Source of the DNA: Prorocentrum cordatum
Lineage: Eukaryota
Reading direction: 5' to 3'
NCBI GenBank assembly: GCA_963575745.1
Contig: CAUYUJ010000191.1
Location: 1 to 64,000 of the forward strand
Length of the DNA stretch: 64,000 nucleotides
Part shown: piece after piece, positions 3,001-35,342 of the stretch
How the letters are laid out: each line of letters starts with the position of its first letter
How positions within the stretch are numbered: the stretch's first letter is position 1
The notes under the pieces: model-generated
Databases searched by the model: none
What the model was told of the DNA's origin: nothing
The model's input: the letters and a program-made list of their open reading frames with translations, nothing else
Made by a program: the position numbers and the translations under genes

Positions 3001-5826
3001 CGCAGGCAAAAACGCCCCAAGAGATCCCCAAACGGCCCCCACGAAGCCCTAAGTGGCTTCAGAATTGCTTCCAGGAGGGGTGGAGCGGACGAGAGGCGAC
3101 CGGTATATCGAAGGCACAAAAGAACAATGTTGGACGCTCCGAGGGCCTTCGATGTTTCTCCGTTGGGGAGAGTCGTCGTAGGATCGACGATTGCCGACCG
3201 AGGGCAGCGAATCCAGTGGAGGCCCAAGAGGCCCGCAGGAGCCCAAAAGAGATCCCCAAGAGGTGCCACGGGGCTTAAAAACTGCTTCGAAGCGAGGGGG
3301 CGGACGAGGGGACCGCCTCAGGAGGTTTTGGACGGTTTTGGGCCTCAAAATCGTCCGCTTTACGACGGTTTTGGAAGGATTTTGGCCTTCTCGCCTTTTC
3401 CGCTTTCCGACGCTCGAAGACGGCCCAAGAGGCCTCCAAGAGCGCCCCAGAACGGCCCAAGAGGTTTCCAAGAGCGCCCCAAGACAGCCCAAGAGGGCCC
3501 CAAGACGACCCAAGAGACGCTCAAGACGGCCCACGAGGGCCCGAAGACAGGCCCAAGAGGGGGCCAAGAGGGGGACCACGGACCGAAAATCCGAGCCTTC
3601 CGCCCCAAGAGGGCGCCAGGAGGCCCAAACAGGCCCCCAAGAGGCCCCAAGGGGCCGCCAAGAATCCCCCGAAGAGGCCCCAGGAGGCTCCCAAGGAGCC
3701 CAAACGAGGCCCCAACAGAGGCCCCAACAGCTTCCAAAATGGCCCCAAGAGGCCTCGAGCCCGCCTCCGAGCTTCCTCGCCGCGAGGGTGCCAACACGGC
3801 CCCAGACCGGCCCAGGACGGCCCAAGGCGCGCTCAAGACGGCCCAAGACGATTCCAAGACGGTCCCAGGAGGGTGCGCCCAGGACGGCCCAAGGACGCGC
3901 CCGTTCGGGGCCTCAAGACGGGCCAAGATGGCAAGAGAGTCCCAGCTGGCAAAAATCGTTAATTTTCCATTGTTTACTGTTACACCCTTTGCGTTTCCCG
4001 CCGTTTCGGCGGTCCGATGCACCAAGAGGCCCCAGAAAGTCCCAGGAGGGTCCGAGGAACCGCCCAGGAAGGCCCCAAGACGGGCCAAGACGGACCCAGC
4101 ACAACCCAAGGCGCGCTGCGACGGCTCAAGACGGCTCCAAGACAGCCCCAAGAGGGTGCCAACACGGCCCCTGCTGGGCCCAGGACGGCCCAAGGAGGCG
4201 CACAGGAGGGGCCCAAGACGACTCCAAGGCGGCCTCCTCACGGTCCCAGACGGCTCCAAGACAGCCCCACGAGGACCCCGATGGGCCCAGGACGGCCTAC
4301 GGACGCGCCCATGAGGGGCCCACGACGAACCAAGACGGCCCCATCAGGGCAAACGGCGCCCTCAAGACGGGCCTAGACGGCTCCAAGACGGCCCTTTGAG
4401 GGAGCCAACGCGGCCCCACACCCTTCGGGCGCACACTTGGGGGGGCTGGGAGCTTGCGACAAGTCTCCCACATTCATTGTCCTGCCCCATTCTGTTCGCC
4501 TGGAGGCCTCCTCCAACCCTGTGGGCGAACAAGAGGAATCCCAGCGGGACGCCAACCCTGGGCCCGTGGGCCCCGCGCCGCTTGGGCAGAAGACGAACGC
4601 CGGGTCTGACAGGCCAGCTACCGCCCCCCTTTGCCCGATATGCTGTGCCATTCTGTTCCCCCAGGGGCCTTGGCAAACTCTTCGGGCCAAGCAGACCGGA
4701 CCCCTGGGACAGCAGCCAATTGATATGACCCTGGGACCTCTCCGCATTCTTCGGACGAGCATCTGGGGGGCCCAGGAGATTCGGACATGTCTTCCCCATT
4801 CCTTGCCCTGTCCCGTTCTGTTCGCCCGAAGGCCTCCACAGACCCTCTGGGCGAACAGAATGGGACATGGCGAACAAACCCTCCCGTTGGCGGTGATGCG
4901 ACTGGATCGCACCATCAAGGCGCGCCCGGAGGTGATGGCCGACCCAACAGCGGTTTCTCTTAAGAGTTCACTGGATTTCAAATTTTCTTGAAGCTCTCTT
5001 GGGCCCTCCCTGTAGATCCTTGCGAGCCTCCCCGGCGCTTTCGGTGGCTTTCCCCGATGGCCTCCCGAGCCCTTCCCCGAGCGCTCCTGAGACGCCTCAG
5101 ATGGGCTTCGACTTCGACGCACATCCCCGAGAGACTTCGAAACTGTCCTCAATAGGAGGGGGGTGAACGAGCAGTGCGCTGGGCCAAGCTGCTGGAGCGC
5201 TGCAAGAGCTCGGACACGAAGGCGCGGTCTCGCTGCCGCCGCCCGAGCCGCCGCCGTGTTTGTAGATTTTCGGTGCAATCTGCGCCGTTCCTCCGAGAAC
5301 CAATCCAGAAAGATGTCGTGGACGGAGTCCACGGGTCAGCCTTATAGTCTCTACTACATTGCAGGGGCACGTGCGTGCGGGAAGGGCGCAGGCTCAAATG
5401 TCTCAAAACCGCCCCGGGCTGGCCCCGGGCCGCCCCGGGCCGCCCAGGCAGGCTCCAGGACACGTCGAGAGGGCCCCCAGAAGCCCCCAAGACGGCCCCG
5501 GAGAGCCCCGGCACGCTTAAAGATGGGCCCAAGACGCCCGAGATTCGCCCCAGGCGGCCCAAGAGGCGTCCAAGACGCCCGAAGAGGCCTCCCAAGAGGC
5601 CTCCCAAGAGGGCCCCGAGCGACAGAAATAGTAGATTTCTACTGTGTTTTTCGATGTTTTCGGCCTCCTCGCCTCGTCGGCTTCCCGACGCTCCAAGACG
5701 GCCCAAGAATCCCCCCCGACCGCTCCAAGACGGCCGAAGAGGACCCCAAGAGAGCCCCAAGACGGGCCAGGAGGGCCCCCAGACAGTCCCAAGACGCCCC
5801 AGGACGGCCCCCGGACGGCCCAGGAG
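1..5826. repeat. ~3.45-kb tandem duplication built from CCAAGA/GGCCC-rich degenerate short repeats plus a unique core
   Basis: CCAAGAGCGCCCCAAGACAGCCC occurs at 17 and 3468 (offset 3451). The core at ~940-1890 recurs at ~4390-5340. The second copy is truncated near 5826. Confidence 0.92.
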
Positions 5827-5929
5827 ACGAGCCGCCGCCGTGTTTGTAGATTTTCGGTACAATCTGCGCCGTTCCTCCGAGAACCATTCCAGAAAGATGT
5901 CGTGGACGGAGTCCACGGGTCAGCCCTAG

Positions 5930-6034
5930 TCAGCTACAGCGCTGGGGTCAGCGCGTGCGCGAAGGGCGGGCAGTGGCAGCCAGCGCTGGCGCTGCTGAGC
6001 GAGATGGGTAAGGCGAAGCTGGAGCCCGACGTCA
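5930..6034 (+). pseudogene. Single pentatricopeptide repeat (PPR) module, exactly 105 nt
   Basis: Translates as SYSAGVSACAKGGQWQPALALLSEMGKAKLEPDV(I), matching the PPR consensus. Preceded by AG at 5928-5929. No flanking coding context. Confidence 0.8.
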
Positions 6035-6179
6035 TTTGTGCCACAATTTTGGCTGAAGCGCGTGCGAGAAGGTCTTTTGTTCGAAGACCCGCCCTGGGGT
6101 GCCTCGAGAGCCCGCGGGGCATGCGAAAAACACATCTGGGACGCCAAACCACACCCTTGGGCGCCTCCAGGACGCCCCC

Positions 6180-6660
6180 CGACAGCTCTGGAAAGCCCCT
6201 GGGCCGCTCGTCGACGGCTCCTGGGCCCGCAGCGCGGCTCCCCCGAGCCCCGACACCTCCAAAAGGCCCCTGGGCCGCTCGCCGACGGCTTCCTCGCCCC
6301 CAGCTCTGCCCAAGACGGGCCCCCAGACGGCTTCCCGCAAGCCCCAAACCAAACCCCACACCCCACACCGAGCCCCCGACACCTCCAGAAAAGGCCCCTG
6401 GGCCGCTCGCCGACGGCTCCCTCGCCCCCAGCTCGGTCCAAGACGGCCTCCCAGATAGCCTTACGCACGCCTCCCGACGGCCCCAGGTCCCTGGGCGCTC
6501 GCCGACGGCTCCACAACATGCGCATCGCCCCGAGACGGCTTCACGCAAGCCCCAAACCAAGCCGCATACGCAACACAGAGCCCTCTCGCCCCCCGACGGC
6601 CTCCCAGATGACCTCCAGGACGCCCACCAACGGCTCCAGAAGGAACCTTCCATGACGCCA
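6180..6660. repeat. Degenerate minisatellite with GCCCCTGGGCCGCTCGCCGACGGCT core
   Basis: Core recurs near 6195, 6266, 6394 and 6489 with irregular spacing. Confidence 0.7.
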
Positions 6661-7109
6661 GAAGTTGCTCAACTCCATCCCAGGCCCTGGAGCATTCTGA
6701 ACTTCCCCAGACCCTCTCGGGAGCTTCTTGTCGACCCCAGCAGCGGCCGCGGCATACCTTCACGGTTTCAGATACTGTTGTTACCCAGGCCTCGTAGTGT
6801 TGGTGACACGGGGGGGGCCTTTCTCAACCGCCTCGTGTCGCTCCACAGCCGCACCACGCTCCAAACCCCGCCCTGGCGCCCAGACCACTCCGACCACTCT
6901 AACCTGCCGCACGCACCACCTGGAGCCCTAGACCATTCCAAGCTGCCTCAGGCCCTCTCAAGCGCCTCCTGTCGTACCCCAGGCGCACCATGCCCCAGAC
7001 CCCAGCCCAGACCCTGGACCACTCTGAGCTCCCCCTGCCCTCCTCTAGAGCCTCACGCGCGGGTTCCGGACCTCTGAGCCCTCGGAGCTCTTGCCGGGGG
7101 CCCCCAAAC

Positions 7110-9730: not shown

Positions 9731-10728
9731 CCCAGCGCCATCTTCTGTATTGCCAGATGCAGCGCGGGCCAGAAGAGTGTTATCATGAAGTGGCCCAAGA
9801 TCGTCGGGCCGGCCACAGGGTCGCAGCGGGCGGGCCCTCAGATGGCCCGCTTTACGGCGGGCCCTCAGATGGCCCGCTGTACGGCCTCAAGAGGCCCCCC
9901 ACGACGGCCCAGACGTCACGCGTGAGGGCCCCAGTAGATCCCAAGAGTTATTTTGTTTAAAATGGTCGAAGGGGCCCTGAAGAGGACCAGAGAGCTTAGG
10001 ACTGCCTCTGGGTGGCCCCTGATGGTCCCAGAATTGTCTCAGTGGGCCCATCAAAGCACCCCAGCCATGAATACTTCAGCATTGGATACTTCAGCACCCC
10101 AGCAATGAAATTATCTGGCGAGGACTCAGCCCCCCAAGAGACGCGAAGAGGCCGAGAGGACTCCCAGATGCCAAGATGTTCCCAGCGGGCTCCCAACACC
10201 AATCGGTCGTTGAAAGTAGGTAGTTTTGGATTCCCAGAACCCAATCTACTTCAAGCGCCTTCCTACTCCAAGAATCGATGCGGTTTGGCTGTCGTTTGTT
10301 GTCCTTCTGGCGGGCCCGAACCCAATCTACTTTATCCGCCTCTCTACTCTGTGCTTTTACTTACTTCTTCTTCCGACCGGCGCGTGCGGCTCAGGAGGGC
10401 GCCAGGACGACGCCCCCCGAGACAGCGCGAGAGGGTCCCGTGAGGCCCCATGATGGCCAAGGAAGTCCAGGAGGGCCCCAAGAGGCACCAACGCCAGCCC
10501 GGGAGGATCCTGCTCTCAAGGGAGTCCCAAGACGCTGCAATGGGGGCCTTCCACAATCCCTCTTAAAGGCCCCCCAGGAGGCCCAAAGTCAGCCTGGGAG
10601 ATGGCCGCCAGAGAGCCCCCAGAGGCCCGGAAGGAGGGCTCGTATATATCGTTCCTCCTCTTCACCTCCGCTTGCTCCCTAGCATCCCATGCAGTGAACT
10701 CTTGTTTGCGCGCTACATCCACTAGGAG

Positions 10729-10757
10729 CCGTAGCCATTTCGCCATTTCGGCTCAAG
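10729..10757 (+). promoter_or_regulatory. Relic dinoflagellate spliced leader (DinoSL) with internal 8-nt duplication
   Basis: CCGTAGCCATTTCGCCATTTCGGCTCAAG versus canonical DCCGTAGCCATTTTGGCTCAAG; ends 69 nt upstream of the ATG. Confidence 0.9.
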
Positions 10758-10826
10758 TTCTGGCCCACGCGCAACGACCACAAGGCATCGGCAGCGCCGC
10801 TACTTCCCGAACCCCAAGCAGCAGGG

Positions 10827-11135
10827 ATGGCGCCAATGATGAAGTCCACGGTCATGACCAAGGGCGCCCTCACCGCAGCGCTCGCGGAGGCCTGCGAGGT
10901 GAAGAGGGGCGTGATCAGCACTGCCTTGAGCACTCTCGCGAGCATCGCAACGACAGAGGCGAAGAAGAACGGCAAGTTCGTCATCCCGGGCGTTGTGATG
11001 ATCAAGACCCGCCAGAAGAAGGCGACCAAGGCCGGGAAGCGCGAGATCTTCGGCAAAGTCGTCATGGTGAAGGCGAAACCGGCTAAGACTATCGTCAAGG
11101 CCTTCCCCGCGAAGGCCCTCAAGGACGAGTTCTGA
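10827..11135 (+). CDS. Dinoflagellate histone-like protein (HCc / HLP, major basic nuclear protein; bacterial HU-related), 102 aa, intronless
   Basis: MTKGALTAALAEACEVKR...GKFVIPGVVMIKTRQKKATKAGKREIFGKVVMVKAKPAKTIVKAFPAKALKDEF matches the HCc family pattern I recall. GC-rich third codon positions, intact start and stop. Confidence 0.95.
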   Translation: MAPMMKSTVMTKGALTAALAEACEVKRGVISTALSTLASIATTEAKKNGKFVIPGVVMIKTRQKKATKAGKREIFGKVVMVKAKPAKTIVKAFPAKALKDEF

Positions 11136-11666
11136 TGTCCCCCCGGTCTTTGGTGAGCCCTGCGAAGGGGCTCCGCGTGTGTTCCCCCCGCTCGTCCATT
11201 TTCCTCCTTCCCTCCGAGGAAACACCGTGTATTTTGTCTTGGTTCGCTGGAGGGTGCGTGGTCATGCATGGCCTTCCATCCCAGGTCGCTCGGCGAGAGC
11301 GATCACATGTACTCTATCTCCGTCTCGCCGGGAGAAACAAAACAACTAGGAGCGGGCCATCCTCAGTTATTTCGGGAAGGCAGAAACCATCGCAGGGCTC
11401 CGCACCGAACTCCAAGCCCCGTTGAAGCAGAACCGCTCGAGCCCGTCCGCAGATGATCAGCTTGCGCACTCCGAACGGAACGGCTCCCAGCACAGATGGA
11501 AGATCTCACTCGAGAGGGACCAACGACCGTGTGGCCTGTCGCACTGGCGCCGCCAGCTCCCGGAAGTCACTGCTGCGCGGCGGCGACGGAGGAGGGAGGG
11601 AGGCATCGAGCAGCGAGCAGACGACAGCGAACGCGCAGAGGCAGGAGGAGCATCGAACAGCAAGAT

Positions 11667-14600
11667 ATCGAAGACGCCTACGGCGAATCACCGCCGCCCC
11701 CTGCCTTTTTGGAAACGCCGATGTGGCCGAAAGTTGGACTAGAGCTTGGCCAAGCTATCGGACCATGAGTTCCCCGAGTCGGTTTGGAAAGCTTTCGGGG
11801 AACACATGGGAGAGAATGATTATGAACAGGAAGAGGAAGAGGAAGAAATAGAGTAGGAGGATGAGGGTTGTTAGGAGTCTCTTGGGGCACCCTTGGGGTC
11901 TGTTGGGAGCTTCTTGGGGGCCTCTTCGAGGCCTCTTGGAGGCATCTTGGGGGCCTCCTTGGGCCTCTTGGGGGCCTTTGGGGGCTTCCTGGGGGTCTCT
12001 TTGGCCGTCTTAGGGCGTTCCTGGTCCGTCTGACGCCGTCTGGAGCCGTCTTGGGGGCCTCTCTGGGCCGTCTTGGGGCCCTCTTGGGGCGCTTCAGGGC
12101 CGTCTTGGAGGCCATGTTGGGCGTCTTGGAGGCCTCTTGGGCCGTCTTGGGGCGCTCTTGGGGCCGTCTTGGGGGGCCCTTGGGCCGTCATAGGGCCTTC
12201 TTGGAGGCCTCTTGGGCGATCTTGGGGGCCTCTTGGGCCGTCGGAAGGCCGAAAAGAGAAAACGCAAAAAACCTTCAAAAACCTAAGGAAAACCAATGAT
12301 TTTGGCCTCTTCGGGCTCTCCTGGAGAACGTCTTGGAGGCCTCTTGGGCCATCTTGGAGGCATCTTGGGGCCATCTTGGCCGTCTTGGAGGGCATCTTGG
12401 GCCGTCTTGGAGGCATCTTGGAGCCATCTTACCCGTCTTGGAGGCCATCTTGGCCGTCTTGGAAGCATCTTGGAGGCCATCTTGGGCCATCTTGGCCGTC
12501 TTGGAGGCCATCTTGGGCCAAGTTGGGGCAACAAAGGCATTGACAGACGGATTTTCGGAAATTTACGGGTGGCCGGCGGGACGGGCCGAAGCCCACTGGG
12601 GAGTTCTTTTAGAAAAAGAACCAAAACCAAAACCTGAATCATCCAGCACGCCGTGCACCCCTGCAAGCAGGGGGCGGCGGATCGAAGACGCCTACGGCGA
12701 ATCACCGCCGCCCCCTGCCTTTTTGGAAACGCCGATGTGGCCGAAAGTTGGACTAGAGCTTGGCCAAGCTATCGGACCATGAGTTCCCCGAGTCGGTTTG
12801 GAAAGCTTTCGGGGAACACATGGGAGAGAATGATTATGAACAGGAAGAGGAAGAGGAAGAAATAGAGTAGGAGGATGAGGGTTGTTAGGAGTCTCTTGGG
12901 GCACCCTTGGGGTCTGTTGGGGGCTTCTTGGGGGCCTCTTCGAGGCCTCTTGGAGGCATCTTGGGGGCCTCCTTGGGCCTCTTGGGGGCCTTTGGGGGCT
13001 TCCTGGGGGTCTCTTTGGCCGTCTTAGGGCGTTCCTGGTCCGTCTGACGCCGTCTGGAGCCGTCTTGGGGGCCTCTCTGGGCCGTCTTGGGGCCCTCTTG
13101 GGGCGCTTCAGGGCCGTCTTGGAGGCCATGTTGGGCGTCTTGGAGGCCTCTTGGGCCGTCTTGGGGCGCTCTTGGGGCCGTCTTGGGGGGCCCTTGGGCC
13201 GTCATAGGGCCTTCTTGGAGGCCTCTTGGGCGATCTTGGGGGCCTCTTGGGCCGTCGGAAGGCCGAAAAGATGAAAACGCAAAAAACCTTCAAAAACCTA
13301 AGGAAAACCAATGATTTTGGCCTCTTCGGGCTCTCCTGGAGAACGTCTTGGAGGCCTCGTGGGCCATCTTGGAGGCATCTTGGGGCCATCTTGGCCGTCT
13401 TGGAGGGCATCTTGGGCCGTCTTGGAGGCATCTTGGAGCCATCTTACCCGTCTTGGAGGCCATCTTGGCCGTCTTGGAAGCATCTTGGAGGCCATCTTGG
13501 GCCATCTTGGCCGTCTTGGAGGCCATCTTGGGCCAAGTTGGGGCAACAAAGGCATTGACAGACGGATTTTCGGAAATTTACGGGTGGCCGGCGGGACGGG
13601 CCGAAGCCCACTGGGGAGTTCTTTTAGAAAAAGAACCAAAACCAAAACCTGAATCATCCAGCACGCCGTGCACCCCTGCAAGCAGGGGGCGGCGGATCGA
13701 AGACGCCTACGGCGAATCACCGCCGCCCCCTGCCTTTTTGGAAACGCCGATGTGGCCGAAAGTTGGACTAGAGCTTGGCCAAGCTATCGGACCATGAGTT
13801 CCCCGAGTCGGTTTGGAAAGCTTTCGGGGAACACATGGGAGAGAATGATTATGAACAGGAAGAGGAAGAGGAAGAAATAGAGTAGGAGGATGAGGGTTGT
13901 TAGGAGTCTCTTGGGGCACCCTTGGGGTCTGTTGGGGGCTTCTTGGGGGCCTCTTCGAGGCCTCTTGGAGGCATCTTGGGGGCCTCCTTGGGCCTCTTGG
14001 GGGCCTTTGGGGGCTTCCTGGGGGTCTCTTTGGCCGTCTTAGGGCGTTCCTGGTCCGTCTGACGCCGTCTGGAGCCGTCTTGGGGGCCTCTCTGGGCCGT
14101 CTTGGGGCCCTCTTGGGGCGCTTCAGGGCCGTCTTGGAGGCCATGTTGGGCGTCTTGGAGGCCTCTTGGGCCGTCTTGGGGCGCTCTTGGGGTCGTCTTG
14201 GGGGGCCCTTGGGCCGTCATAGGGCCTTCTTGGAGGCCTCTTGGGCGATCTTGGGGGCCTCTTGGGCCGTCGGAAGGCCGAACAGAAGAAAACGCAAAAA
14301 AACTTTCAAAAACCTAAGGAAAATCAATGATTTTGGCCTCTTCGGGTCCTCCTGAGGACCTCTTGAGGGGCTCTTGGACTGTGTTGGAGGCCTCTTTGGG
14401 GCCTCTTGGGCCATCTTGGGCCATCTTGAGGCTATCTTAGGCCGTCTTGGGTACATCTTGGGCCGTCTTGGAGGCATCTCAAGGCCATCTTAGCCGTCTT
14501 GGAGACCAGCTTGACCATCTTGGAGGCATCTTGGAGGCCATCTTGGAGCCGTCTGGGGCAGGAAATTGGGGAATTGAGGTCCTGGAAGGGTGGCCGGCGG

Positions 14601-14702
14601 GACGGGCCGAAGCCCACTGGGGAGTTCTTTTAGAAAAAGAACCAAAACCAAAACCTGAAACATCCAGCACGCCGTGCACCCCTGCAAGCAGGGGGCGGCG
14701 GA
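11667..14702. mobile_element. Three head-to-tail copies of a ~1.01-kb non-coding element with 14-bp asymmetric inverted repeats and a TCTTGG-rich interior
   Basis: Units start ATCGAAGACGCCTACGGCG at 11667, 12681 and 13696. CCGCCGCCCCCTGC (11691-11704) is the reverse complement of GCAGGGGGCGGCGG (12667-12680). Confidence 0.9.
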
Positions 14703-15403
14703 CCTAGTGGCCCTCGGCCCATCCCGCCACCGTGCCTGGGTTGTGGCTTAGAGGCCTCTTGGATGTTCGTTTGGGTCTAGTGGGGGAAGGCCTCTCGGGG
14801 GCCTCTTGGATGCAGTTTTGAGGCCTCTTGGGGGCCGTTTGGGGTCCTTTCGGGGCATCTTTTTGGGCCTCGTGGGGCCTTTTGGGGCCTCCTGGGGACC
14901 TCTTGGGGCGGAAGGCTCGAATTGTCGGTTCGCGTTCCCCCTCGTCTTGGGACCCTCTTGGGCGATCTTCTGGGGCCATCTTGGTGCCTCGGAAACCAAA
15001 CGCGAGAACGCGGGGCACATCGAACAACACACGGGAAATCAATGATTGTTTGCCTCTTTGGGCCCTCTTGAGGGTCATCTTGGAGCGCTCTTGGGGCTTC
15101 TTTGGGGCCTCTTGGACCGTCTTGGTGCCATCCCGGGCGTATTGGAGCGCTCTAGGGCTGTCTTGGAGGCCTCTTGGAGGCCTTTTGGGCGCTTCTTGGG
15201 CACCTCTGGGCCCGTCTGGGGGCCCCCTGGCCTTTGGAAAAGTCACGCGAGGCAGCCCAGGAGCGCGCGGGAGCGCCCAGGAAATTTGAGGAATTTTGGG
15301 CCCCAGCCCTTGGAAAACTATATTCCCAGAGTCTTGAGTACAGTGAACAGAGGACACATGAGAGCGGGGGGGCCACTTCGTGCCTCGAGGCACGGTGGCG
15401 GAT
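14703..15403. mobile_element. ~0.7-kb non-coding element with a different 14-bp asymmetric inverted repeat and the same layout
   Basis: CCGCCACCGTGCCT (14724-14737) pairs with AGGCACGGTGGCGG (15388-15401). 3' hairpin CGTGCC-TCGA-GGCACG. TCTTGG-rich interior. Confidence 0.8.
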
Positions 15404-15420
15404 TCGGAAATCATAATTTA

Positions 15421-15554
15421 TCGGAGGTCCGCGCGTATTTCTTGGATCGGCGTTGGGCCCCCCTGTCGGCGCCTCTGGCGCCGCCTCTGGCGCACTCCGC
15501 GCACTAAGGAGGGGGGTTCCAGCGCCGATCCAAGATCTCCGCGCGAACCTCCGA
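15421..15554. mobile_element. MITE-like element (~135 bp, ~32-bp imperfect TIRs)
   Basis: TCGGAGGTCCGCGCGTATTTCTTGGATCGGCG ... CGCCGATCCAAGATCTCCGCGCGAACCTCCGA. Confidence 0.75.
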
Positions 15555-16193
15555 GAAATGGTGTTTATGCCATGTGGTGTTTCTCCAGCAGGGGTGGGAG
15601 AGGAGGAGGAGGAGGGAGAGGGGAGCAACCGCAGGCAGGCGGGCCAGAGCAGGGGCCTGCTCCTCCTTGCCCCCCGCTCGCTGCTCCCTGCTCCCTCTTC
15701 CCCCCTCCTCCTCCTCTCCTCCTCCTCCTCCTCCTCCTCCTCCTCCTCCTCCTCCTTCCCCTCCTCCTCCTTCTCCTCCTCTTTGATTCCTCCTCCCTCC
15801 CTCAGGACGTTTCGGGCCTCGGTTTCTCACTCGGCTGCTGTCCCTCCGCCGTTGTGTGCTCCCTCTGGCCCTCGCTCGCTCGTCCTCGTCGGGCCCTCGT
15901 TCGGTCCTGTGCTGCTGGGAGTTGGCGCTTGACTCCAACCCACGCCCAAACAAAACCCCCTTCCTCAGGACACGACCGCAGGTGGCACCCCCGTGCTGTT
16001 GAGGGCGCAGCTTCGTACACGCGCGCGCGCTCCTCCCTCCCGTCAAGCACCCAGCCGCTGGCGCGCCGCAGGGCCACGTCAGCGAGCTGACGGAGGTACT
16101 CCCCGCACACCGTGCCGCTGCCCCGCGCGCAGCCCCAGACGGAGAGCGCACCCGTCAGCTGCTTCTGGGGCCGCTTCCGCGGCCGACCCCCAG

Positions 16194-16271
16194 GAGCGCC
16201 GCCTCCTGGACAACGGCGGCCTGCGCGAGATGGTCGGCGACAGCCCCGCCCTGGACTCAGCGGAGGAAAAG
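16194..16271 (+). CDS. Candidate micro-exon (ERRLLDNGGLREMVGDSPALDSAEEK), gene unassigned
   Basis: CAG|G acceptor, AAG|GTAACC donor, 78 nt with GC3-rich codons. No recognised homology. Confidence 0.4.
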
Positions 16272-17353
16272 GTAACCGTGCTGCTACCCTTCCCTCTGTG
16301 TCCTCTTTTAGGCGTCCTGGGAGACCCTCGTCGCCACCGCTGGATTCGCCTCGGACTTCCGGTCAGAACGCACCCCAGGAGAGGTCAGGGGAGTAGTGGT
16401 ATCGGTGCCTTTTGGTCTCCCCAGTCCTGGACAGTGTCCATGCGTCGTCCTGAACAGCGCGCCGCAGGTCATTCCCGCGCCCCACGGCGCCCGTCGGGGC
16501 TTGCACGTGCACCATTTCCACGCTTCCCTGCGGTCATGCACCTGAGCCGGTTCGTGGGGGCGGCTCCCTGCGGAGACCACGTCCGCCCTTCGACGACCGC
16601 CAGCACGCATCGATGTTGATCGATGCCAGTGCCGCAGGCGACCTGGCAGCTCCCCCTCGTCACGCATGGTGAGGCAAGCGAACGACGATGGCGTTGGCGC
16701 TCCTCCTTGTCCCGTCAGCGATGCCAGTCGGCACGAGGACCACTCGGCTCCCAGTGCGAGGCGAGTAAAAGACGATGGGGCGGCCCTCTCTCTCGCTCTC
16801 TTTCTCTGATCCGCGGGTTCGAAGCCAGTCTGGATGGCCAGCTACCCTGTCGGCCCCGAGCCCAATGATCTCAGATGGAGCCGCGCCCCTACTGTGCGAC
16901 GCACACGTCGCCACAGCCAGCACCCTCCGGCACGGAAAACGAGGTAGGCTCAGGTTGACGGGTGGCGCGCGCGCGCATTTGCGGCGCCCCACGCCCGGTG
17001 GCCTGGCCCCGTGGGCGGTTCCAGCACGAAGCCGAAGCGGTTCGAGCGGTCCGCGCGGTTTTGCTGCGGGGTCTGAGCGTCTGTGCCAGGCCTCCCGCGG
17101 GCCTTCGGCTCGTCCCCTCGGATCCCTTGCGTCAGCTCGTCGCCTGACCCAGGGGGCCGAGCGGCGGGGCCAGGCCGCGCGAGACCGACCCCGCCACGCC
17201 GACCCGGAGTCCCTGTGCCCAGAGTCCGGGTACCACCTCTGCCAGATGCCCTTGAGCCCGCCGAGCTCCCAGGCGTGCGCGTTCCCCCGGTGCTCGCTGA
17301 GGATGCCGCCCCGGAAAGCAGCCCACATCCTCGACATGGAGGCTCGGCCGCAG

Positions 17354-19057: not shown

Positions 19058-20365
19058 TTTCCCAACCCTCCCTTGATTGGGTTCTCGTTCTGAATAGAGC
19101 AGCAGTGGGGTCTCCACCTTCTCCTCCTCGCCCCCCGCCGCTCTCCCCTCGGCCCTCTCCTCTCGCCTGCCTGCGCCTGTCTGCACCTGCCTGCTGGGGG
19201 AGCAAGCTCTGTCCCCCTCGCGCCTGCCTGCTGGAGGAGCCAGCACAGTGGGGTCCCACGCAGATCCAAATGAGACCTCGCCATCCCTGCGGGCTGCGAA
19301 GTGTGAACCTGTCGCCACTTTCGAGGGCTGCTGGGGGGGCCAGCGCAGTGGAGTCCCACGCAGATCCAAGTGAGACCTCGCCATCCCTGCGGGCTGCGAA
19401 GTGTGAACCTGTCGCCACTGTCGAGGGCTGCTGGGGGGGCCAGCGCAGTGGGGTCCCACGCAGATCCAATTAGGACCTCGCCATCCCTGGGGGCTGCGAA
19501 GTGTGAACCTGTCGCCACTGTCGAGGGCTGCTGGGGGGGCCAGCGCAGTGGGGTCCCACGCAGATCCAATTAGGACCTCGCCATCCCTGGGGGCTGCGAA
19601 GTGTGAACCTGTCGCCACTTTCGAGGGCTGCTGGGGGGGCCAGCGCAGTGGGGTCCCACGCAGATCCAATTAGGACCTCGCCATCCCTGGGGGCTGCGAA
19701 GTGTGAAATTGTCGCCACTTTCGAGGGCTGCTGGGTGGGCCAGCGCAGTGGGGTCCCACGCAGATCCAATTAGGACCTCGCCATCCCTGGGGGCTGCGAA
19801 GTGTGAAATTGTCGTCACTTTCGAGGGCTGCTGGGTGGGCCAGCACAGTGGGATCCCACGCAGATCCAATTAGGACCTCGCCATCCCTGGGGCTGCGAAG
19901 TGTGAACCTGTCGCCCCTTTCGAGGGCTGCTGGGGGGGCCAGCGCAGTGGGGTCCCACGCAGATCCAATTAGGACCTCGCCATCCCTGGGGGCTGCGAAG
20001 TGTGAAATTGTCGTCACTTTCGAGGGCTGCTGGGCGGGGCCAGCACAGTGGGATCCCACGCAGATCCAATTAGGACCTCGCCATCCCTGGGGGCTGCGAA
20101 GTGTGAACCTGTCGCCACTTTCGAGGGCTGCTGGGGGGGTCAGCGCAGTGGGGTCCCACGCAGATCCCAACGGGACCTTGCCATCCCTGGCGCAACTTTC
20201 GAGGGCTGCTGGGGGGAGCCAGCGCAGTGGGGTCCCACGCAGATCCAACCGGGACTTCGCCATCCCGGGGGGCTGCGAAGTGTGAAACTGTCATCTTTTT
20301 CGAGGTCTGTTGGGGGGGCTAGCACAGTGGGATCCCACGCAGATCCCAAAAAGACCTCGCCATCA
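19058..20365. repeat. 100-bp tandem array (~11 units) behind a conserved TTTCCCAACCCTCC head
   Basis: CAGCrCAGTGGG at 19441, 19541, 19641, 19741 and 19841. The head at 19058-19105 is homologous to 62725-62770. Confidence 0.93.
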
Positions 20366-21659
20366 TCTCGCAGCTTCTACCGAGGTGATTGTTCTTCCAC
20401 CCCGATGTCTTCCTTTTGCTTCGCATTCCCGGTACAATGCCTCCTGGTGTTTGTACCTCTGTTCTGCGAGTCGGCCACGCACAGTTCGCACGACATGGAT
20501 ATCCGCCGTGCACCGTCTTTTGCAGTGTTGCTGTCGTTGTCGGCACACCTTCTATCATCCCCTGGGTCATGTCATTGGCTATGTGTGGAAAGGTGGGGGT
20601 TCTTGGCCCGCTGACTCTTGTCCGTGTTGCCACTGCTATTCGCTGCCCTCCTGTCCTCCTGGTGCTCACCCTCGGAGGAGGGTGGGGGGGCCGGGCGGGG
20701 CTCCCACCTGTCCTCTCGGGAGCCTCGACACGGGGGTCACTGCAAACGGGGGTCAGCCAGAGCGCCGGATCTTGCAGGATCCTGCAGCGCCAGGAGCGTG
20801 ATGACCCGGGTCAGCGCGCAGGATCTTGCAACATCTTGCAGGATCTGGCAGATCCCGACTTGCCCGGGCCGGTGCATCCCCGGGCCGCGAGGAAGCCTCC
20901 AGAAGCAGGCGGGTCGAGGTTTCTCGGGGCTAGTGGAAGCTCTCGAACCTCGGGCCGTGCTCCCGCTCTGGGAGGCCTGCCCTTCTGGCCCCAGGGGCCG
21001 TGAGGAGGGGGCCAGTCACGCGCAGAGAGGGGGTTAGGGGGGGAGGGGGGGAGGTCTTCTCAGAAGCACCCTGCTTCTTATTCGGCGCGGGCCGTATCTA
21101 TAGATGTAGGGCTGGCGCCTTCTAAGGAGCAGCCTCCTTCTAAGAAGCCTTCCCCCCTCCCTCTACCCCTTCTGCCCCCTGGACAGGCCCGTCCTGAGCC
21201 CAGGAGCTGTGTGCACGCCCTCCTGCCCAAGCCAGGAGGGGCGTGACGCACACGCCGCTGCTGGGCTCAGAGTGGGGCTGGCCAGAGAGCAGTGGACATG
21301 CACAGTTTTCGTCGCCCTACGGAGGTTCGGCCTCCAGAGGCCCCGTTCGGGCCTCTGGAGGCCGAACAATGTTCGGGGATGGAGAGCCAGTCCGTGAAGG
21401 GGTCGAAAGGTCCAGGATCACGCATCGAACGCATCACGATGTTTTTTCTTCGATAAGGCGGACCCGCCCGCTCTGCTGGGCCGCGCCCGCGATAACGGCC
21501 GCCGTTGGGGTCCAGAGGGTGGTTCCAAACCTCTGTCTCCCTCGGGTCTGAAGGGTGTTCGCAACGAAGCGCTTTCGCGACCCTCGTTCTCTGCGATCCC
21601 AGACGCTGTGGTCGCACTCGACTTCTTCCTCTCCCGCTGCTACCCCGCACCCTACTCGT

Positions 21660-22192
21660 ATCTAGCGGCTTTTGACCCATCCCGCCACCAGCCACCGTGC
21701 CTGGGTTGTCGGTCCGAGGCCTCTTGGATGCCTGTTGGGGTCTCTTGGGATGCCTCTCGGAAGCCTCTTATAGGCCTCTTGAGGGGGCTCTTGGGGTCTC
21801 TCGGGGGCCTCTGGGGTTTGGCGCTTCGGGGGGCTCTTGGGGGCATACTGGGGGTCTTGGAGGCAACATGTGGGGAAAAGGCTCCAAAGGGCCCTTCGCT
21901 TTCCCTCTGTTGGGTCCATCTTGATGCGCCTTTGGAGGTATCTTGGGCCGTCTTGGGATCCTCCTGGGGCCTTCTGGGCAGTCTTGGGGCAATCTTTGGG
22001 GCCTCTTTGGTCGCTTTGGAGTGTCGGACGCCCGAAAAAGTGAGAACGCCAAACTTGAGGCGCATCAGTGGTTTTGGCCTCTTGGAGCCCTTTTGGGGCT
22101 CCTTTTGGGGCCCTCTTGGGGCGTCTCGAGGGGCAGAGAGCTCGAAAGGACCCGAGTACGCTTCTTTCAGTGCCTACGCCGCGCTGGCGGAT
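21660..22192. mobile_element. Degenerate TCTTGG-rich element related at its 5' end to 14703-15403
   Basis: CCCATCCCGCCACC(AGCCACC)GTGCCTGGGTTGT at ~21676 matches ~14718. Ends in GGCGGAT at ~22186-22192. Confidence 0.6.
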
Positions 22193-22220
22193 CCCTCTCC
22201 CGCACTCAGAGTGCCTTAAG

Positions 22221-25769: not shown

Positions 25770-25776
25770 TGATGAC

Positions 25777-25859
<83 letters not shown>

Positions 25860-25953
25860 GGATGAGGATGAGGATGAGGATGAGGATGATGATGGTGCTG
25901 CTGATGATGATGCTGCTGATGATGATGATCATGATGATGATGAGGATGATGAT

Positions 25954-25996
<43 letters not shown>

Positions 25997-26168
25997 TTGA
26001 TGATGATGATTCTGATGATGCTGATGATGATTATGATGATGATGATTCTGATGATGCTGATGATGCTGCTGCTGCTGATTATGATGCTGATGATGATGAT
26101 GCTGATGTGGAGGATGATGCTGATGATGCTGATGATGCTGATGAGGATGACGATGATGATGCTGATTG

Positions 26169-26215
<47 letters not shown>

Positions 26216-26461: not shown

Positions 26462-26498
<37 letters not shown>

Positions 26499-26794: not shown

Positions 26795-26825
<31 letters not shown>

Positions 26826-27379: not shown

Positions 27380-27435
<56 letters not shown>

Positions 27436-33140: not shown

Positions 33141-33319
33141 CGACTGACCTCGCAGCTTTGCGTGGTTGTGGCTGTCGCGGCATCTTGCGAACACCAACGT
33201 GGCCAGCGCACCGCAGGCCGCTGCTTTGTACGGCTGCCAGAATTCATGTGTGTCTGGAGTCAACCTGGAGTCACGCGACCCTGCAGAGGATGAGGCATAG
33301 AATGAAGCGGCGCGGGCCG

Positions 33320-35342
33320 ACTTGGGGTACTCTTGGGGGCTGGCTTGGAGCTATCTTGGAGGCCTCTTGGAGGCTTCTTGGGCCGTCGTGAAATGCATGA
33401 TTGCGGTGCTGATATGAATGCAGTGTAGCATAACGTGCAGGCGAGCAAGCAGCATGTGCGGATACTCCTGCGGAAGATTAAAGGCCTTTCCGTATCCATT
33501 TGGTTCAATCTTTTTCAGGGCTTTTGAGCTTGGGCGTTCGTCAGAGACATTCGCTTGCCTTGATAAGTCAAATACCTTCGCCGGTCTTTGCGCAGAGTGC
33601 CCCATCATTTGCATATCATAACCTTGCGGCTATCTTCGCTCACGAACCCCTCTTTGCAACGCTGGATCTGCAGCCGTCTTGGGCGGTCGGGAACCGGAAC
33701 AGGTGATCACTTCATAATCTATCAAACACTTAAGGAACATCAGCGGGTTTGGCCTCCTCGGACTCTCTAGGAGGGCCTCTTGGAGACCTCTCGGGCCGTC
33801 TTGGGGGCTTCTCGATATGTCTTGAGGCCTTCTTGGGGGCCTCCTCAGCCGTCGTGGGCCATCTTGAGCCATCTTGGCGTTATCTTGGCTGCCTTTAGCG
33901 CAGTCCTGGAGGCCATGAGGCTCCCAAGAAGGCCTCAAGACAGATTTAGAGGTCCCCGGGACGGCCGAAGAGGTCTCCAAGATGCCCTCCAGGAGAGTCC
34001 GAATCTGCCAAACCATTGATTTCCGCAGGTTTTTGTTGAAGGATTTTGACGTTCTGATATGTTCGGGTTCCCGACCGCCCGCGGCAGCCTGCGGGGCCTC
34101 TCTGGGCAGTGTTGACGCTCTCCTGGAGTGTTTCGCGGCTGTCTTGGGGCCTTCCTTTGGAGCCCTTTTGGGCGACCTTTGGGTTCTCTTGGGCCGACTT
34201 GGCGCCCTCTTGGGGGCCTTGTGCGCTGCCTTGGAGCTACAGTGGATGCCTCTTGGAAACCTCTCGGGCCGCCTTGGGCGCATCTTGAGCCGTTTTGTTG
34301 TCGTCATAGTTCTCTTGGAAACTGTCTTGGAGGCCATCTTGGCCGTCCTGGATCTCGTGGGAGGCCTCTCGGAGGCCTCTTGGAGACAGTTTTGAGGCCT
34401 CTTGGGGGCTGTTTCGGGGCCCCTCGGAGCCTTTTTTTGCGCCCCTTGGGGGTCTCTTGTGGCCTCTTGGGGGCTTCTTGAGGGCCTAGTGGGGCCTTCT
34501 GGGCGCCTCTTGGGGCGGAAGGCCAGGATTTTCGGTTCGTATTGTCTCTCCGTGGCCCCGTTTGGGGCCGCCTTGGGGCCCTCTTGGGCCGTTTTGGGCA
34601 CCTCTTGGGCCGTTTTGGGGCCCTCGTGGGCCGTTTTGGGGCCCTCTTGGAGGCCTCTTGGGCCGTCTTGGGGCTCTTGGGAGCCTCTAGGGACGTCTCG
34701 GAGCGTCGGGAAGCCGAAAAGGCGACAACCGAAGGAATATTAATGATTTTGGATTGTTGGGGCCCTCTTGGGAGGCCTCGTGGAGGCCTCTTTGGGCGTC
34801 TTATCCTGTGCCGTCATTGGGGGCCATCCTGAGCGTCTTGGAGCGATCGTTCGGCGACTCGGGGCCCTCTTGGACTGTCTTGGGGGGCCTCTTGGGGCCC
34901 TCTTGGCCCGTCTTGGGGTCCATCTCGGGCCCGAATCATTTATGCGACGACACGTCCCGGAGCCCAGGGGGCACGCGGGAAGCCCCTGAAGATTGGAGAG
35001 CGAAAGGGCCGAGCCCCTGAGAGACTCCTCGGGAGTGAGGATTGAGGCTCAGAGGACTGGGCCCAGGACCTGAGATACACTCCAGGCGATGCTTAAAAAA
35101 ACCCAAGTTTTCGGCCAGAGTCTCGATTATTCTTAATGTTTCAATGTAAATCCTAACATTTGAATAGACATTCTGGGTTTGATTTCAAATTCTGAGACTA
35201 TGAATTTCTTAACACATGATTTCTAAAGCATTTCGCAGGGTGTACGCCCACTCCGTGCCCAGAGCCACAGTGGCGGACCAAACCTCCCAATCAACAGACG
35301 AGCATTCCAACACGCCCACTCCGTGCAGGCACGGTGGCGGAT
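33320..35342. repeat. Composite TCTTGG-rich (reverse CCAAGA) repeat ending in two ACGCCCACTCCGTGC...GTGGCGGA terminal motifs
   Basis: Interior resembles 14750-15230 and the reverse complement of 1-5826. Terminal motifs lie at ~35245-35278 and ~35312-35342. Confidence 0.75.

What the first reader, a model, noticed from the sequence alone, without database searches (positions are those of the whole stretch)
11667..15403. Two stacked element families with different sequence but the same end architecture (Helentron/Helitron2-like)
Seen: family 1 (3 copies) has a 5' mini-hairpin CGCC-TAC-GGCG, a 14-bp IR starting 24 nt inside, and a 3' hairpin CCCCTGC-AA-GCAGGGG overlapping the complementary 14-mer and ending GGCGGA(T). 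Family 2 begins exactly at that end: mini-hairpin GGCC-CTC-GGCC, a 14-bp IR ~21 nt inside, 3' hairpin CGTGCC-TCGA-GGCACG, ending GGCGGAT. The IR sequences differ between families but stay perfectly complementary within each. No TSD is visible between units. Related ends occur at ~21680, ~22190 and ~35245-35342. Established: asymmetric TIRs, hairpins and head-to-tail arrays typify non-autonomous rolling-circle elements. Inference: the pervasive CCAAGA/TCTTGG repeats are cargo of such elements, possibly an uncharacterised dinoflagellate superfamily. No transposase is visible in this window.
Basis: partly seen in the sequence, partly recalled or inferred. Interest (0 to 1): 0.75.

Follow-up and report, generated by a model that had tools for sequence, protein, structure and literature searches.

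The report
Stacked Helitron2-type transposons carrying minisatellites
The flagged stretch is a head-to-tail stack of four small non-coding jumping genes of the rolling-circle (Helitron2) kind in what looks like a dinoflagellate genome, a known kind of element that is little described in this group.

Summary
Window 11668-14702 is three head-to-tail units of about 1014 bp (F1). 14703-15402 is a 700-bp unit of a second family (F2). The units abut with no base between them.

Read on the minus strand, each unit fits the published Helitron2 end layout:
- a 5' T, then a 14-nt inverted repeat that also forms a 5' hairpin;
- the complementary 14-mer 19-23 nt from the 3' end;
- a 4-bp mini-hairpin after that 14-mer.

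F1 and F2 differ at 7 of the 14 repeat positions, and all 7 are compensated at the other end. No TSD is seen. Host flanks are A (5') and T (3').

A metagenome contig shows the same F2-then-F1 order with unrelated flanks. Four public runs each give thousands of look-alike contigs.

I found no RepHel or other transposase in the window, and no genome was held. The autonomous partner, genome-wide covariation and empty sites are therefore untested.

Verdict: these are non-autonomous Helitron2/HINE-like elements, a new member of a known kind rather than a new superfamily. The claim that the minisatellites are cargo is only partly supported.

This scan had already noted Helitron2-type, satellite-carrying elements on other pieces of the same genome.

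The parts
11668..12681 (-). F1a, family 1 unit (1014 bp). The 5' T is at 12681 and the 3' end ...TCTTCGA is at 11668. The host base after the 3' end (11667) reads T on the minus strand.
12682..13696 (-). F1b, family 1 unit (1015 bp), 99.7% identical to F1a.
13697..14702 (-). F1c, family 1 unit (1006 bp), about 92% identical to F1b.
14703..15402 (-). F2, family 2 unit (700 bp). The 5' T is at 15402 and the 3' end ...CACTAGG is at 14703. The host base before the 5' end (15403) reads A on the minus strand.
12667..12680 (-). F1 5' inverted repeat (5'-ATIR, CCGCCGCCCCCTGC on the minus strand), 1 nt from the 5' end. The same repeat lies at 13682-13695 and 14688-14701.
12649..12679 (-). F1 5' hairpin, which includes the 5'-ATIR: outer stem CGCCG/CGGCG, inner stem CCCCTG/CAGGGG.
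   Evidence: -10.4 kcal/mol, z -1.47, 17 of 200 shuffles fold as well
11691..11704 (-). F1 3' inverted repeat (3'-ATIR, GCAGGGGGCGGCGG on the minus strand), 23 nt from the 3' end. The same repeat lies at 12705-12718 and 13720-13733.
11675..11685 (-). F1 3' mini-hairpin CGCC-GTA-GGCG, between the 3'-ATIR and the 3' end.
   Evidence: Read. It forms inside the loop of the junction fold. Alone it is no better than shuffles (z -0.74).
15388..15401 (-). F2 5'-ATIR (CCGCCACCGTGCCT on the minus strand), 1 nt from the 5' end.
15372..15399 (-). F2 5' hairpin: GCCAC-CGTGCC-TCGA-GGCACG-AA-GTGGC.
   Evidence: -10.8 kcal/mol, z -4.62, 0 of 200 shuffles fold as well
14724..14737 (-). F2 3'-ATIR (AGGCACGGTGGCGG on the minus strand), 21 nt from the 3' end.
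14709..14719 (-). F2 3' mini-hairpin GGCC-GAG-GGCC.
   Evidence: present in the minimum-energy fold; the region has z -0.30
21661..22191 (-). F2b, a decayed F2-like full copy (531 bp). It starts TCCGCC, and its 3' tail GGCGG-GAT-...GCTAGA aligns with that of F2. Only 6 nt of the ATIR pairing remain. The host flanks are A (5') and T (3').
35300..35341 (-). Lone F2-like 5' end (TCCGCCACCGTGCC..., with a hairpin), preceded by A.
35236..35277 (-). A second F2-like 5' end, 64 nt downstream of the first on the minus strand, preceded by G.
33300..35235 (-). TCTTGG-type minisatellite blocks and spacers behind those two 5' ends. Probably one or more decayed elements. I found no 3' end.

Best explanation
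The stretch is a head-to-tail stack of four non-autonomous rolling-circle transposons of the Helitron2 (HLE2) type, all on the minus strand. They belong to two related families.

Layout of each unit (shown):
- It starts with T, followed by a 14-nt repeat that folds back on the next bases as a 5' hairpin.
- Inside are two blocks of CCAAGA-type minisatellite on either side of a conserved spacer of about 80 nt.
- It ends with the complement of the 14-mer, a 4-bp/3-nt-loop mini-hairpin and a short tail.

How it most likely works (inferred):
- A RepHel transposase (HUH nuclease plus Pif1-type helicase) encoded elsewhere in the genome nicks one strand just 5' of the T.
- It peels the strand off 5' to 3'.
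- It stops where the 3' repeat and mini-hairpin mark the end. The two repeats may pair at this step, as Bao and Jurka proposed.
- The single-stranded circle is then pasted between an A and a T without a target duplication.

How the stack arose (inferred): either new copies land at the A|T edge of a resident copy, or the stop signal is read through so that neighbours move as a composite. Unequal crossing-over could have added the nearly identical pair F1a/F1b.
For: 1. Layout. [quoted passage not shown] The 14-nt pairing was reached in 0 of 1000 shuffles in each of these. The published ranges are 0-2 nt and about 20-30 nt (PMC3627910, passages).

2. 5' hairpin. The 5' repeat is part of a 5' hairpin:
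- F2: z -4.6
- L002 F2-like: z -2.8
- L002 F1-like: z -2.0
- F1: z -1.5

3. Covariation. F1 and F2 differ at 7 of 14 repeat positions. All 7 are matched at the 3' repeat and in the falling arm of the 5' hairpin.

4. Shared ends.
- All 7 of the 7 5' ends aligned start TCCGCC.
- The asymmetric 3' tail is conserved between separate loci: F2, F2b and L002 all carry GGCGG-GAT-hairpin-tail. The tail therefore belongs to the element and not to the host.

5. Flanks.
- No direct repeat abuts the stack or F2b.
- The host base before an unstacked 5' end is A in 4 of 5 cases (15403, 22192, 35342, L002 1480). It is G at 35278.
- The host base after a 3' end is T in 2 of 2 cases (11667, 21660).

6. Independent locus. 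Contig L002 has an F2-like unit (1481-1641) directly followed by an F1-like unit (from 1642). The F1-like unit is 76% identical to F1 over 414 bp. The flanks are unrelated to the window's.

7. Many diverged copies. The contigs of 4 of 4 public runs laid on the stretch number 16983, 71320, 1265 and 1960. They spread over the 90-95%, 95-99% and 99%+ likeness classes. For example, up to 77 contigs of run X20 cover the non-satellite place 11715.

8. Joined ends. The tandem junction folds into a 14-bp stem that encloses the mini-hairpin (-27.8 kcal/mol, z -4.5, 0 of 200 shuffles).

9. Literature (passages read):
- Internal tandem repeats can fill about half of non-autonomous Helentron-associated elements (HINE/DINE-1; PMC4067079).
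- Tandem Helitron insertions are on record in several organisms (PMC5148889).
Against: - No RepHel gene was found: 0 of 174 ORFs of 130 aa or more matched. I dropped 106 further low-complexity ORFs before scanning, and ORFs split by introns could be missed.
- No genome was held, so no autonomous partner with these ends could be sought.
- Only two families, plus one decayed copy and one outside contig, carry the covariation.
- The flanks (A before, T after) are those of canonical Helitrons. HLE2 elements are described as inserting at T|T or T|C (PMC13085455 and PMC11417382, passages).
- The 3' mini-hairpins are no more stable than shuffles (z -0.3 to -0.7). In isolation the F1 3' region prefers a different fold.
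- F2b has lost both the repeat pairing and the mini-hairpin.
- No empty site and no circle junction was seen. The joints all lie inside minisatellite, with sides of 21-31 nt.
- A 10-nt direct repeat (CCTCTCCCGC) lies near F2b, 24 nt off on one side. I could not explain it.
Confidence: 0.78

Rival explanations
1. An ordinary miniature inverted-repeat element (MITE) moved by a DDE cut-and-paste transposase. On this view the 14-mers are its terminal inverted repeats.
For: Perfect 14-nt inverted repeats lie near both ends. The same genome is said to hold several DDE transposon kinds (earlier notes; not checked by me).
Against: - The repeats are not symmetric. One lies 1 nt from its end and the other 19-23 nt from its end.
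- The extra tail is conserved between separate loci, so it is part of the element.
- No target duplication abuts the stack, F2b, or the repeat-to-repeat core.
- Units abut with 0 nt between them.
Confidence: 0.06
2. A plain satellite. On this view a roughly 1-kb unit was multiplied in place by unequal crossing-over, its palindromes have no role in movement, and the 'second family' is just neighbouring repeat DNA.
For: F1a and F1b are 99.7% identical neighbours, as local duplication would give. The interior is minisatellite.
Against: - The array holds a whole number of units and starts and stops exactly at the ends defined by other loci.
- The same ends occur at 21661-22191, at 35341 and in contig L002, each with other flanks.
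- Thousands of diverged look-alike contigs occur in 4 of 4 runs.
- The 14-mers covary between families.
Confidence: 0.05
3. A rolling-circle element served by another HUH nuclease rather than a RepHel. Examples would be a Rep of the small-circular-virus type, or an IS200/IS605-like single-strand transposase. On this view the units are integrated multimers of a small replicon or its satellite.
For: - There are hairpins at both ends.
- There is no TSD.
- The joined ends form a stem-loop like a replication origin.
- The units are about 1 kb.
Against: - The exact layout (terminal 5' repeat within a hairpin, subterminal 3' repeat followed by a hairpin, 5' T) is the published Helitron2 signature.
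- I saw no origin-type nonamer in the loop. The nonamer motif itself is recalled and was not tested.
- Earlier notes report RepHel genes and helicase remnants in satellite-carrying elements of this genome (e1-7626887, e1-7625408; not checked by me).
Confidence: 0.08

Closest known systems
Helitron2 group of Helitron-like elements (HLE2), e.g. Helitron-1N1_CRe and CRe-1/2/3 of Chlamydomonas (Bao and Jurka 2013, PMC3627910, passages read)
   Same: - Short asymmetric terminal inverted repeats (14 nt here; 8-15 published).
- The 5' repeat is 0-2 nt from the end and lies inside a 5' hairpin.
- The 3' repeat is about 20-30 nt from the end and is followed by a hairpin.
- The 5' terminal base is T.
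- Compensatory changes keep the repeats paired.
- No regular TSD.
   Different: - The flanks here are A before and T after, not TTTT|T/C.
- No RepHel partner was seen.
- The interior is minisatellite.
- The host is a dinoflagellate-like genome.
HINE / DINE-1, non-autonomous Helentron-associated elements (Thomas et al. 2014, PMC4067079, passages read)
   Same: - Non-coding.
- 12-15 bp subterminal inverted repeats.
- A small 3' stem-loop.
- Central tandem repeats or microsatellites that can fill about half of the element.
- Very high copy number.
   Different: - HINEs prefer TT sites and carry runs of T at their edges.
- Their partners carry an AP-endonuclease domain. The partner here is unknown.
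Helitron2-like element of Symbiodinium microadriaticum (RepHel reported by Heringer and Kuhn 2021, PMC8788227, passages read)
   Same: A dinoflagellate host. The authors describe the element as structurally closer to Helitron2 and as lacking the endonuclease domain.
   Different: That report concerns the protein and its position in the tree. I saw no terminal sequences to compare, and no protein is present here.
Canonical Helitrons (HLE1)
   Same: - They begin with TC.
- They insert between A and T.
- No TSD.
- A small hairpin lies near the 3' end.
- F2 and F2b end in CTAG plus one base.
   Different: - Canonical Helitrons have no terminal inverted repeats and no 5' hairpin.
- Their CTRR 3' end is not met by F1 (…TTCGA) or by the L002 element (…CAGTC).

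Membership tests
Helitron2 / HLE2 | Short (8-15 bp) 5' inverted repeat lying 0-2 bp from the 5' end | tested here: met
   14 nt at offset 1 in F1 (3 copies), F2 and the L002 F2-like element. Reached in 0 of 1000 shuffles.
Helitron2 / HLE2 | 3' inverted repeat about 20-30 bp from the 3' end, just upstream of a hairpin | tested here: met
   19-23 nt from the end. It is followed by a 4-bp/3-nt-loop hairpin in F1, F2 and the L002 element. The hairpin is lost in F2b.
Helitron2 / HLE2 | 5' terminal hairpin that involves part or all of the 5' repeat | tested here: met
   z -4.6 for F2, -2.8 for the L002 F2-like element, -2.0 for the L002 F1-like element, -1.5 for F1 and -0.4 for the end at 35341. None in the decayed F2b.
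Helitron2 / HLE2 | Compensatory changes keep the two repeats complementary | tested here: met
   F1 and F2 differ at 7 of 14 positions, and all 7 are compensated. This rests on only two families plus one outside copy.
Helitron2 / HLE2 | 5' terminal T | tested here: met
   7 of 7 aligned 5' ends start TCCGCC.
Helitron2 / HLE2 | Insertion within T|T or T|C, with no target duplication | tested here: inconclusive
   No TSD. The base before the 5' end is A in 4 of 5 unstacked ends, and the base after the 3' end is T in 2 of 2. This suggests A|T rather than T|T, but the sample is very small and there are no empty sites.
Helitron2 / HLE2 | Autonomous partner with the same ends that encodes Rep (HUH) plus a Pif1-type helicase and falls in the HLE2 clade | not testable with these tools
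   None among 174 ORFs in the window. No genome is held. Earlier notes report RepHel genes in this genome; I did not check them.
HINE / DINE-1 (non-autonomous Helentrons) | Subterminal inverted repeats, a 3' stem-loop, central tandem repeats, and no coding capacity | tested here: met
HINE / DINE-1 (non-autonomous Helentrons) | TT target with T runs at the edges, and a Helentron partner carrying an AP endonuclease | tested here: inconclusive
   No T runs at the edges and an A before the 5' end. The partner could not be sought.
Canonical Helitron (HLE1) | 5' TC, 3' CTRR, no terminal inverted repeats | tested here: not met
   The 5' TC is present, but 14-nt inverted repeats are also present. The 3' ends read TTCGA, CTAGG, CTAGA and CAGTC.
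TIR MITE (DDE transposase) | Symmetric terminal inverted repeats flanked by a fixed-length target duplication | tested here: not met
   The repeats lie 1 nt from one end and 19-23 nt from the other. No abutting direct repeat.

The most novel reading that the evidence does not exclude
These are members of a dinoflagellate lineage of Helitron-like elements that joins Helitron2-type ends to the A|T target of canonical Helitrons. That combination would fit the intermediate tree position reported for a Symbiodinium RepHel. The lineage would home to the edges of its own resident copies, so building one-way stacks. It would also be the main vehicle that spreads the genome's dominant CCAAGA minisatellite, and so a large part of what inflated this genome.
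Probability: 0.25. Interest if true: 0.55.

Novelty: new member of a known kind. Interest (0 to 1): 0.35.

Why it matters
Dinoflagellate genomes are huge and full of repeats, and most of that repeat content is unclassified.

- Clear end rules for an abundant non-coding family would let annotators classify a large share of the 'unknown' repeats and minisatellites. The rules are a TCCGCC start with a paired 14-mer, and a GGCGG-GAT-hairpin tail.
- The same rules would allow a search for the RepHel partner.
- They would allow a test of whether rolling-circle elements spread minisatellites and stack on each other in this group.
- The A|T flanks combined with Helitron2-type ends, if they hold genome-wide, bear on how the two Helitron groups are related.

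In itself the finding is a solid example of a known kind of element. It is not a new mechanism.

Tried and rejected
- **Whole genome:** none is held. I did not build a covariance model, because there was no genome to search with it. A pattern scan of the window (TCCGCC[AG]CC, up to 1 mismatch) found no further convincing ends.
- **Viral contigs:** a 17-mer gave 1 hit that is unrelated coding DNA. A 24-mer gave 0 hits.
- **Prokaryote genome contigs:** the 24-mer gave 0 hits. A 21-mer gave 14 hits, and none of the 14 shows any further likeness to the elements by BLAST. They are chance hits.
- **Reads laid on the stretch:**
  - No listed contig spans the stretch or bridges the flanks.
  - The joints listed lie within minisatellite with 21-31 nt sides, so they say nothing about empty sites or copy number.
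  - Bins without cover (11376-11569 and 15644-16225) prove nothing.
  - Shares of words in the runs were 0.13-0.30. I name no habitat or strain from them.
- **End alignments:** the MAFFT alignments of the ends are not structure-aware and served only for the shared start and tail.
- **RNA genes:** Rfam gave 0 matches in the window and ARAGORN found 0 tRNAs.
- **The end-like site at 29090-29098:** it reads ATCCGCCACC on the minus strand but has no hairpin and no partner. I treat it as a possible chance match and did not count it.
- **Earlier findings by sequence and by place 'near':** nothing was returned.
- **Papers:** searches for Helitron with dinoflagellate, with Prorocentrum, and with Symbiodiniaceae plus repeat listed no paper that describes the ends of non-autonomous Helitron-like elements in dinoflagellates. 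I judged this from listings and abstracts only. The Prorocentrum cordatum genome paper has 0 occurrences of 'Helitron' in its main text. I did not open its supplements, and they may hold repeat tables.
Full report
**1. What is in the sequence**

Window 11667-15403 holds four repeat units that abut with no base between them.
- Self-BLAST gives 11667-13696 against 12681-14702 at 95.8%.
- The first two units are 99.7% identical. The third is 91.9% identical to the second.
- The fourth unit (14703-15402, 700 bp) is a different family. It shares only the minisatellite-and-spacer plan with the others.

The repeat finder reports perfect 14-nt inverted repeats:
- Family 1: CCGCCGCCCCCTGC at 11691, 12705 and 13720, against GCAGGGGGCGGCGG at 12667, 13682 and 14688.
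- Family 2: CCGCCACCGTGCCT at 14724, against AGGCACGGTGGCGG at 15388.

I shuffled the first and last 45 nt of each unit 1000 times, keeping dinucleotide content. None of the 1000 shuffles reached 14 nt for any of the four units; the longest was 11-12 nt.

**2. The layout reads best on the minus strand**

On that strand each unit begins with T followed by the 14-mer (offset 1 nt). Its complement sits 23 nt (family 1, F1) or 21 nt (family 2, F2) from the 3' end.

The 5' 14-mer also pairs with the bases just downstream, giving a 5' hairpin:
- F2: GCCAC-CGTGCC-TCGA-GGCACG-AA-GTGGC, -10.8 kcal/mol, z -4.6, 0 of 200 shuffles as good.
- F1: CGCCG-CCCCTG-...-CAGGGG-...-CGGCG, -10.4 kcal/mol, z -1.5, 17 of 200 shuffles as good.

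Between the 3' 14-mer and the 3' end lies a mini-hairpin with a 4-bp stem and a 3-nt loop: CGCC-GTA-GGCG in F1 and GGCC-GAG-GGCC in F2.

This is the layout that Bao and Jurka gave for Helitron2 (PMC3627910, passages read):
- asymmetric terminal inverted repeats of 8-15 bp;
- the 5' one 0-2 bp from the end and forming a 5' hairpin;
- the 3' one about 20-30 bp from the end, upstream of a hairpin;
- a 5' T.

For a non-coding copy the direction can only be set by structure.

**3. Covariation**

The two 14-mers differ at 7 of 14 positions. All 7 differences are matched in the 3' repeat and in the falling arm of the 5' hairpin. So three stretches change together. This is the kind of compensatory change Bao and Jurka reported for two mosquito families. 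Here it rests on two families only.

**4. Weak points of the structure**

- Folded alone, the 3' regions are no more stable than shuffles (z -0.74 for F1, -0.30 for F2, -0.60 for the L002 copy).
- The F1 3' region prefers another small fold when isolated.
- The case for the mini-hairpins rests on their fixed place in F1, F2 and the outside copy, with different letters. It does not rest on energy.

**5. Other copies**

In the window:
- A decayed full F2-like copy lies at 21661-22191. It has the same TCCGCC start and the same tail (GGCGG-GAT-...-GCTAGA). Only 6 nt of repeat pairing remain, a value reached in 285 of 1000 shuffles, and the mini-hairpin is lost.
- Two F2-like 5' ends lie at 35341 and 35277, 64 nt apart. 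Minisatellite blocks follow them down to about 33300, and I found no 3' end.

Outside the window, one scan of metagenome contigs with a 22-mer from the non-satellite part of F1 gave one contig, L002. It holds:
- a 161-bp F2-like unit (1481-1641) with an intact 14-nt pairing (0 of 1000 shuffles), a 5' hairpin (z -2.8) and the GGCC-GAA-GGCC mini-hairpin;
- directly after it, from 1642, an F1-like unit that is 76% identical to F1 over 414 bp.

Its flanks are unrelated to the window's. All 7 of the 7 5' ends aligned begin TCCGCC. The 3' tail is conserved across separate loci. The asymmetry therefore belongs to the element.

**6. Abundance**

Sequencing-run look-up found 20 rows that hold part of the stretch, none with more than 0.30 of its sampled words. 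I laid the contigs of four runs on 10600-16400 at 90% likeness. This placed 16983, 71320, 1265 and 1960 contigs, spread over the 99%+, 95-99% and 90-95% classes. Most of them fit two places of the stretch. The non-satellite parts are also covered by many distinct contigs; for example, a variant at 11715 is carried by 17, 77, 3 and 5 contigs in the four runs.

A recurrent loose end in run X20 at 12668 (27 contigs) shows a subfamily with a longer loop in the 5' hairpin, like the F1-like unit of L002. These are large, diverged families in those samples. Because summed contig depth is not a copy number, I give no copy number. No listed contig bridges the flanks, so no empty site was seen.

**7. 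Flanks**

- No direct repeat abuts the stack or F2b.
- The base before an unstacked 5' end is A in 4 of 5 cases (window 15403, 22192 and 35342, and L002 1480, read on the element's strand). It is G at 35278.
- The host base after a 3' end is T in 2 of 2 cases (11667 and 21660).
- In the four stacked junctions the next base is the T of the following unit.

This fits insertion between A and T without a duplication. That is the target of canonical Helitrons, whereas HLE2 elements are described as using T|T or T|C (PMC13085455 and PMC11417382, passages). Fusarium Helitron2 elements use TNAT|A (PMC5148889, passages). The sample is too small to settle this, and the A could instead be the first base of the element.

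A 10-nt direct repeat near F2b, offset by 24 nt on one side, stays unexplained.

**8. Coding capacity and context**

- I scanned 174 of the 280 stop-to-stop ORFs of 130 aa or more against Pfam. The other 106 were dropped for low complexity.
- None matched Helitron_like_N, PIF1 or any transposase family. The units themselves gave nothing.
- Rfam gave 0 matches and ARAGORN found 0 tRNAs.
- One ORF just upstream (10698-11132, +) passes the Pfam cut-off for the bacterial HU-type DNA-binding family (25.7 bits against 22.4). From my own knowledge, this family includes the histone-like proteins of dinoflagellates. Together with 60-65% G+C and kilobase-long microsatellites, it fits a dinoflagellate.
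I did not test that. The published genome has 59.7% G+C (PMC10666404, passages).

**9. How it most likely works**

Shown: the layout, the covariation, the lack of a TSD, the stacking, the many diverged copies and the lack of genes.

Inferred, from what is established for Helitrons (reviewed in the passages):
- A RepHel made elsewhere nicks just 5' of the T.
- It unwinds the strand 5' to 3'.
- It ends at the 3' repeat plus mini-hairpin.
- It joins the ends into a single-stranded circle.
- It integrates the circle at an A|T.

The natural tandem junction folds into a 14-bp stem that encloses the mini-hairpin (-27.8 kcal/mol, z -4.5, 0 of 200 shuffles). This is what the joined ends of a circle would look like, and it fits Bao and Jurka's idea that pairing of the two repeats marks the end point.

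**10. How the stack arose**

The stack could arise in three ways that I cannot tell apart:
- landing of a new copy at the A|T edge of a resident copy;
- read-through of a stop signal, so that neighbours move as a composite;
- local unequal crossing-over, which is plausible for the 99.7% pair.

The same F2-then-F1 order, with unrelated flanks, occurs in L002 at 76-90% identity. This speaks for either homing to copy edges or movement as a composite, and against a mere local accident. Tandem Helitron insertions are on record in bat, Drosophila, rice, maize and Metarhizium (PMC5148889, passages).

**11. The 'cargo' claim**

The hexamers are about ten times over-represented: 175 TCTTGG and 131 CCAAGA on the + strand, against about 17 and 13 expected.
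- Of the 175 TCTTGG sites, 121 lie in the five bounded units and 34 in 33300-35341, behind the lone 5' ends.
- Of the 131 CCAAGA sites, 99 lie in 1-5830. This is a 3.45-kb tandem duplication with the same minisatellite-spacer-minisatellite plan on the other strand, but with no end of the TCCGCC type.

That region does hold, three times, a roughly 100-nt motif that ends in a hairpin (GTGGAC-GGA-GTCCAC), 9 nt, CTAG and then T. Text that reads like pentatricopeptide (PPR) repeats follows it (PPR_2 hit). This looks like a canonical-Helitron type 3' end. The claim is therefore supported for the flagged units and plausible, but open, for the rest. Central tandem repeats that fill up to about half of an element are known for HINE/DINE-1 (PMC4067079, passages).

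**12. Comparison and novelty**

The units work like, and by five of the seven Helitron2 features listed in the membership test belong with, Helitron2/HLE2 non-autonomous elements. In build they are closest to HINE/DINE-1.
- The target dinucleotide is inconclusive and may differ.
- The defining protein partner could not be tested.
- A Helitron2-like RepHel of Symbiodinium microadriaticum is in print and was placed outside Helitron2 plus Helentron (PMC8788227, passages).
- My three searches listed no paper describing the ends of such non-coding elements in dinoflagellates (listings and abstracts only).
- HELIANO's main text does not mention dinoflagellates.

This scan itself had already noted, on other pieces of the same genome (AI notes that I did not check):
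- satellite-carrying Helitron2-type copies;
- a RepHel-coding Helitron;
- LINEs inserted in the end hairpin.

I file the finding as a new member of a known kind, not a new superfamily.

**13. Verdict**

- Observation: confirmed.
- Interpretation: partly supported.
- Best explanation: a stack of non-autonomous Helitron2-type elements, confidence 0.78.
- Interest: 0.35.

Noticed in passing
window 1797-1894, 5248-5345, 5832-5929 (+): A roughly 100-nt motif occurs three times. It ends in a hairpin GTGGAC-GGA-GTCCAC, then 9 nt, then CTAG, then T. Text that reads like PPR repeats follows each copy (PPR_2 hit in ORF 5635-7074).
   Followed up: partly
window 1-5826: A 3451-bp tandem duplication (1-2372 against 3452-5826, 97.7%). 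It is full of CCAAGA minisatellite blocks and spacers on the + strand, with an inner 363-bp repeat at 2140-2814.
   Followed up: partly
window 15409-15566: A fold-back element right beside the F2 5' end. It has 55-nt arms that are 80% complementary and 48 nt apart. Many contigs of the public runs match it, and in run X6 they begin to differ at 15421. Probably a separate MITE-like repeat.
   Followed up: partly
window 35587-36510: A 20-nt inverted repeat (GGGGGGTCACTACCGGTTCG) occurs three times at 35587, 35640 and 35698 and faces one copy at 36392-36411. Further 13-18 nt inverted repeats lie nearby. Probably another transposon with repeated subterminal motifs.
   Followed up: no
window 10698-11132 (+): An ORF matches the bacterial HU-type DNA-binding family above Pfam's cut-off (25.7 bits against 22.4). 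Possibly a dinoflagellate histone-like protein gene just upstream of the stack.
   Followed up: no
window 19228-20364 and 62895-63749: Two related satellites of 100-102 bp (about 10 and 8 copies). Each unit holds a 12-nt palindrome, GTGGGATCCCAC or GTGGGTACCCAC.
   Followed up: no
window 25770-28440, 38867-41222, 49517-52219, 58278-62725: Kilobase-long, impure trinucleotide arrays (TGA, GAT, GTA) with a strong G-over-C skew. There is also a 77-bp satellite at 46221-47400.
   Followed up: no
window 21631-21640 and 22195-22204: A 10-nt direct repeat CCTCTCCCGC on both sides of F2b. On the left it lies 24 nt outside the element's end. It may be chance or a trace of an odd insertion event; variable TSDs are reported for some Chlamydomonas Helitron2 copies.
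   Followed up: partly
L002 1-600: The outside contig also carries a (CA)n run, a tandem repeat of about 60 bp rich in GGCGGCAACGAGG, and a short CCAAGA block at about 690-770 upstream of its two elements.
   Followed up: no
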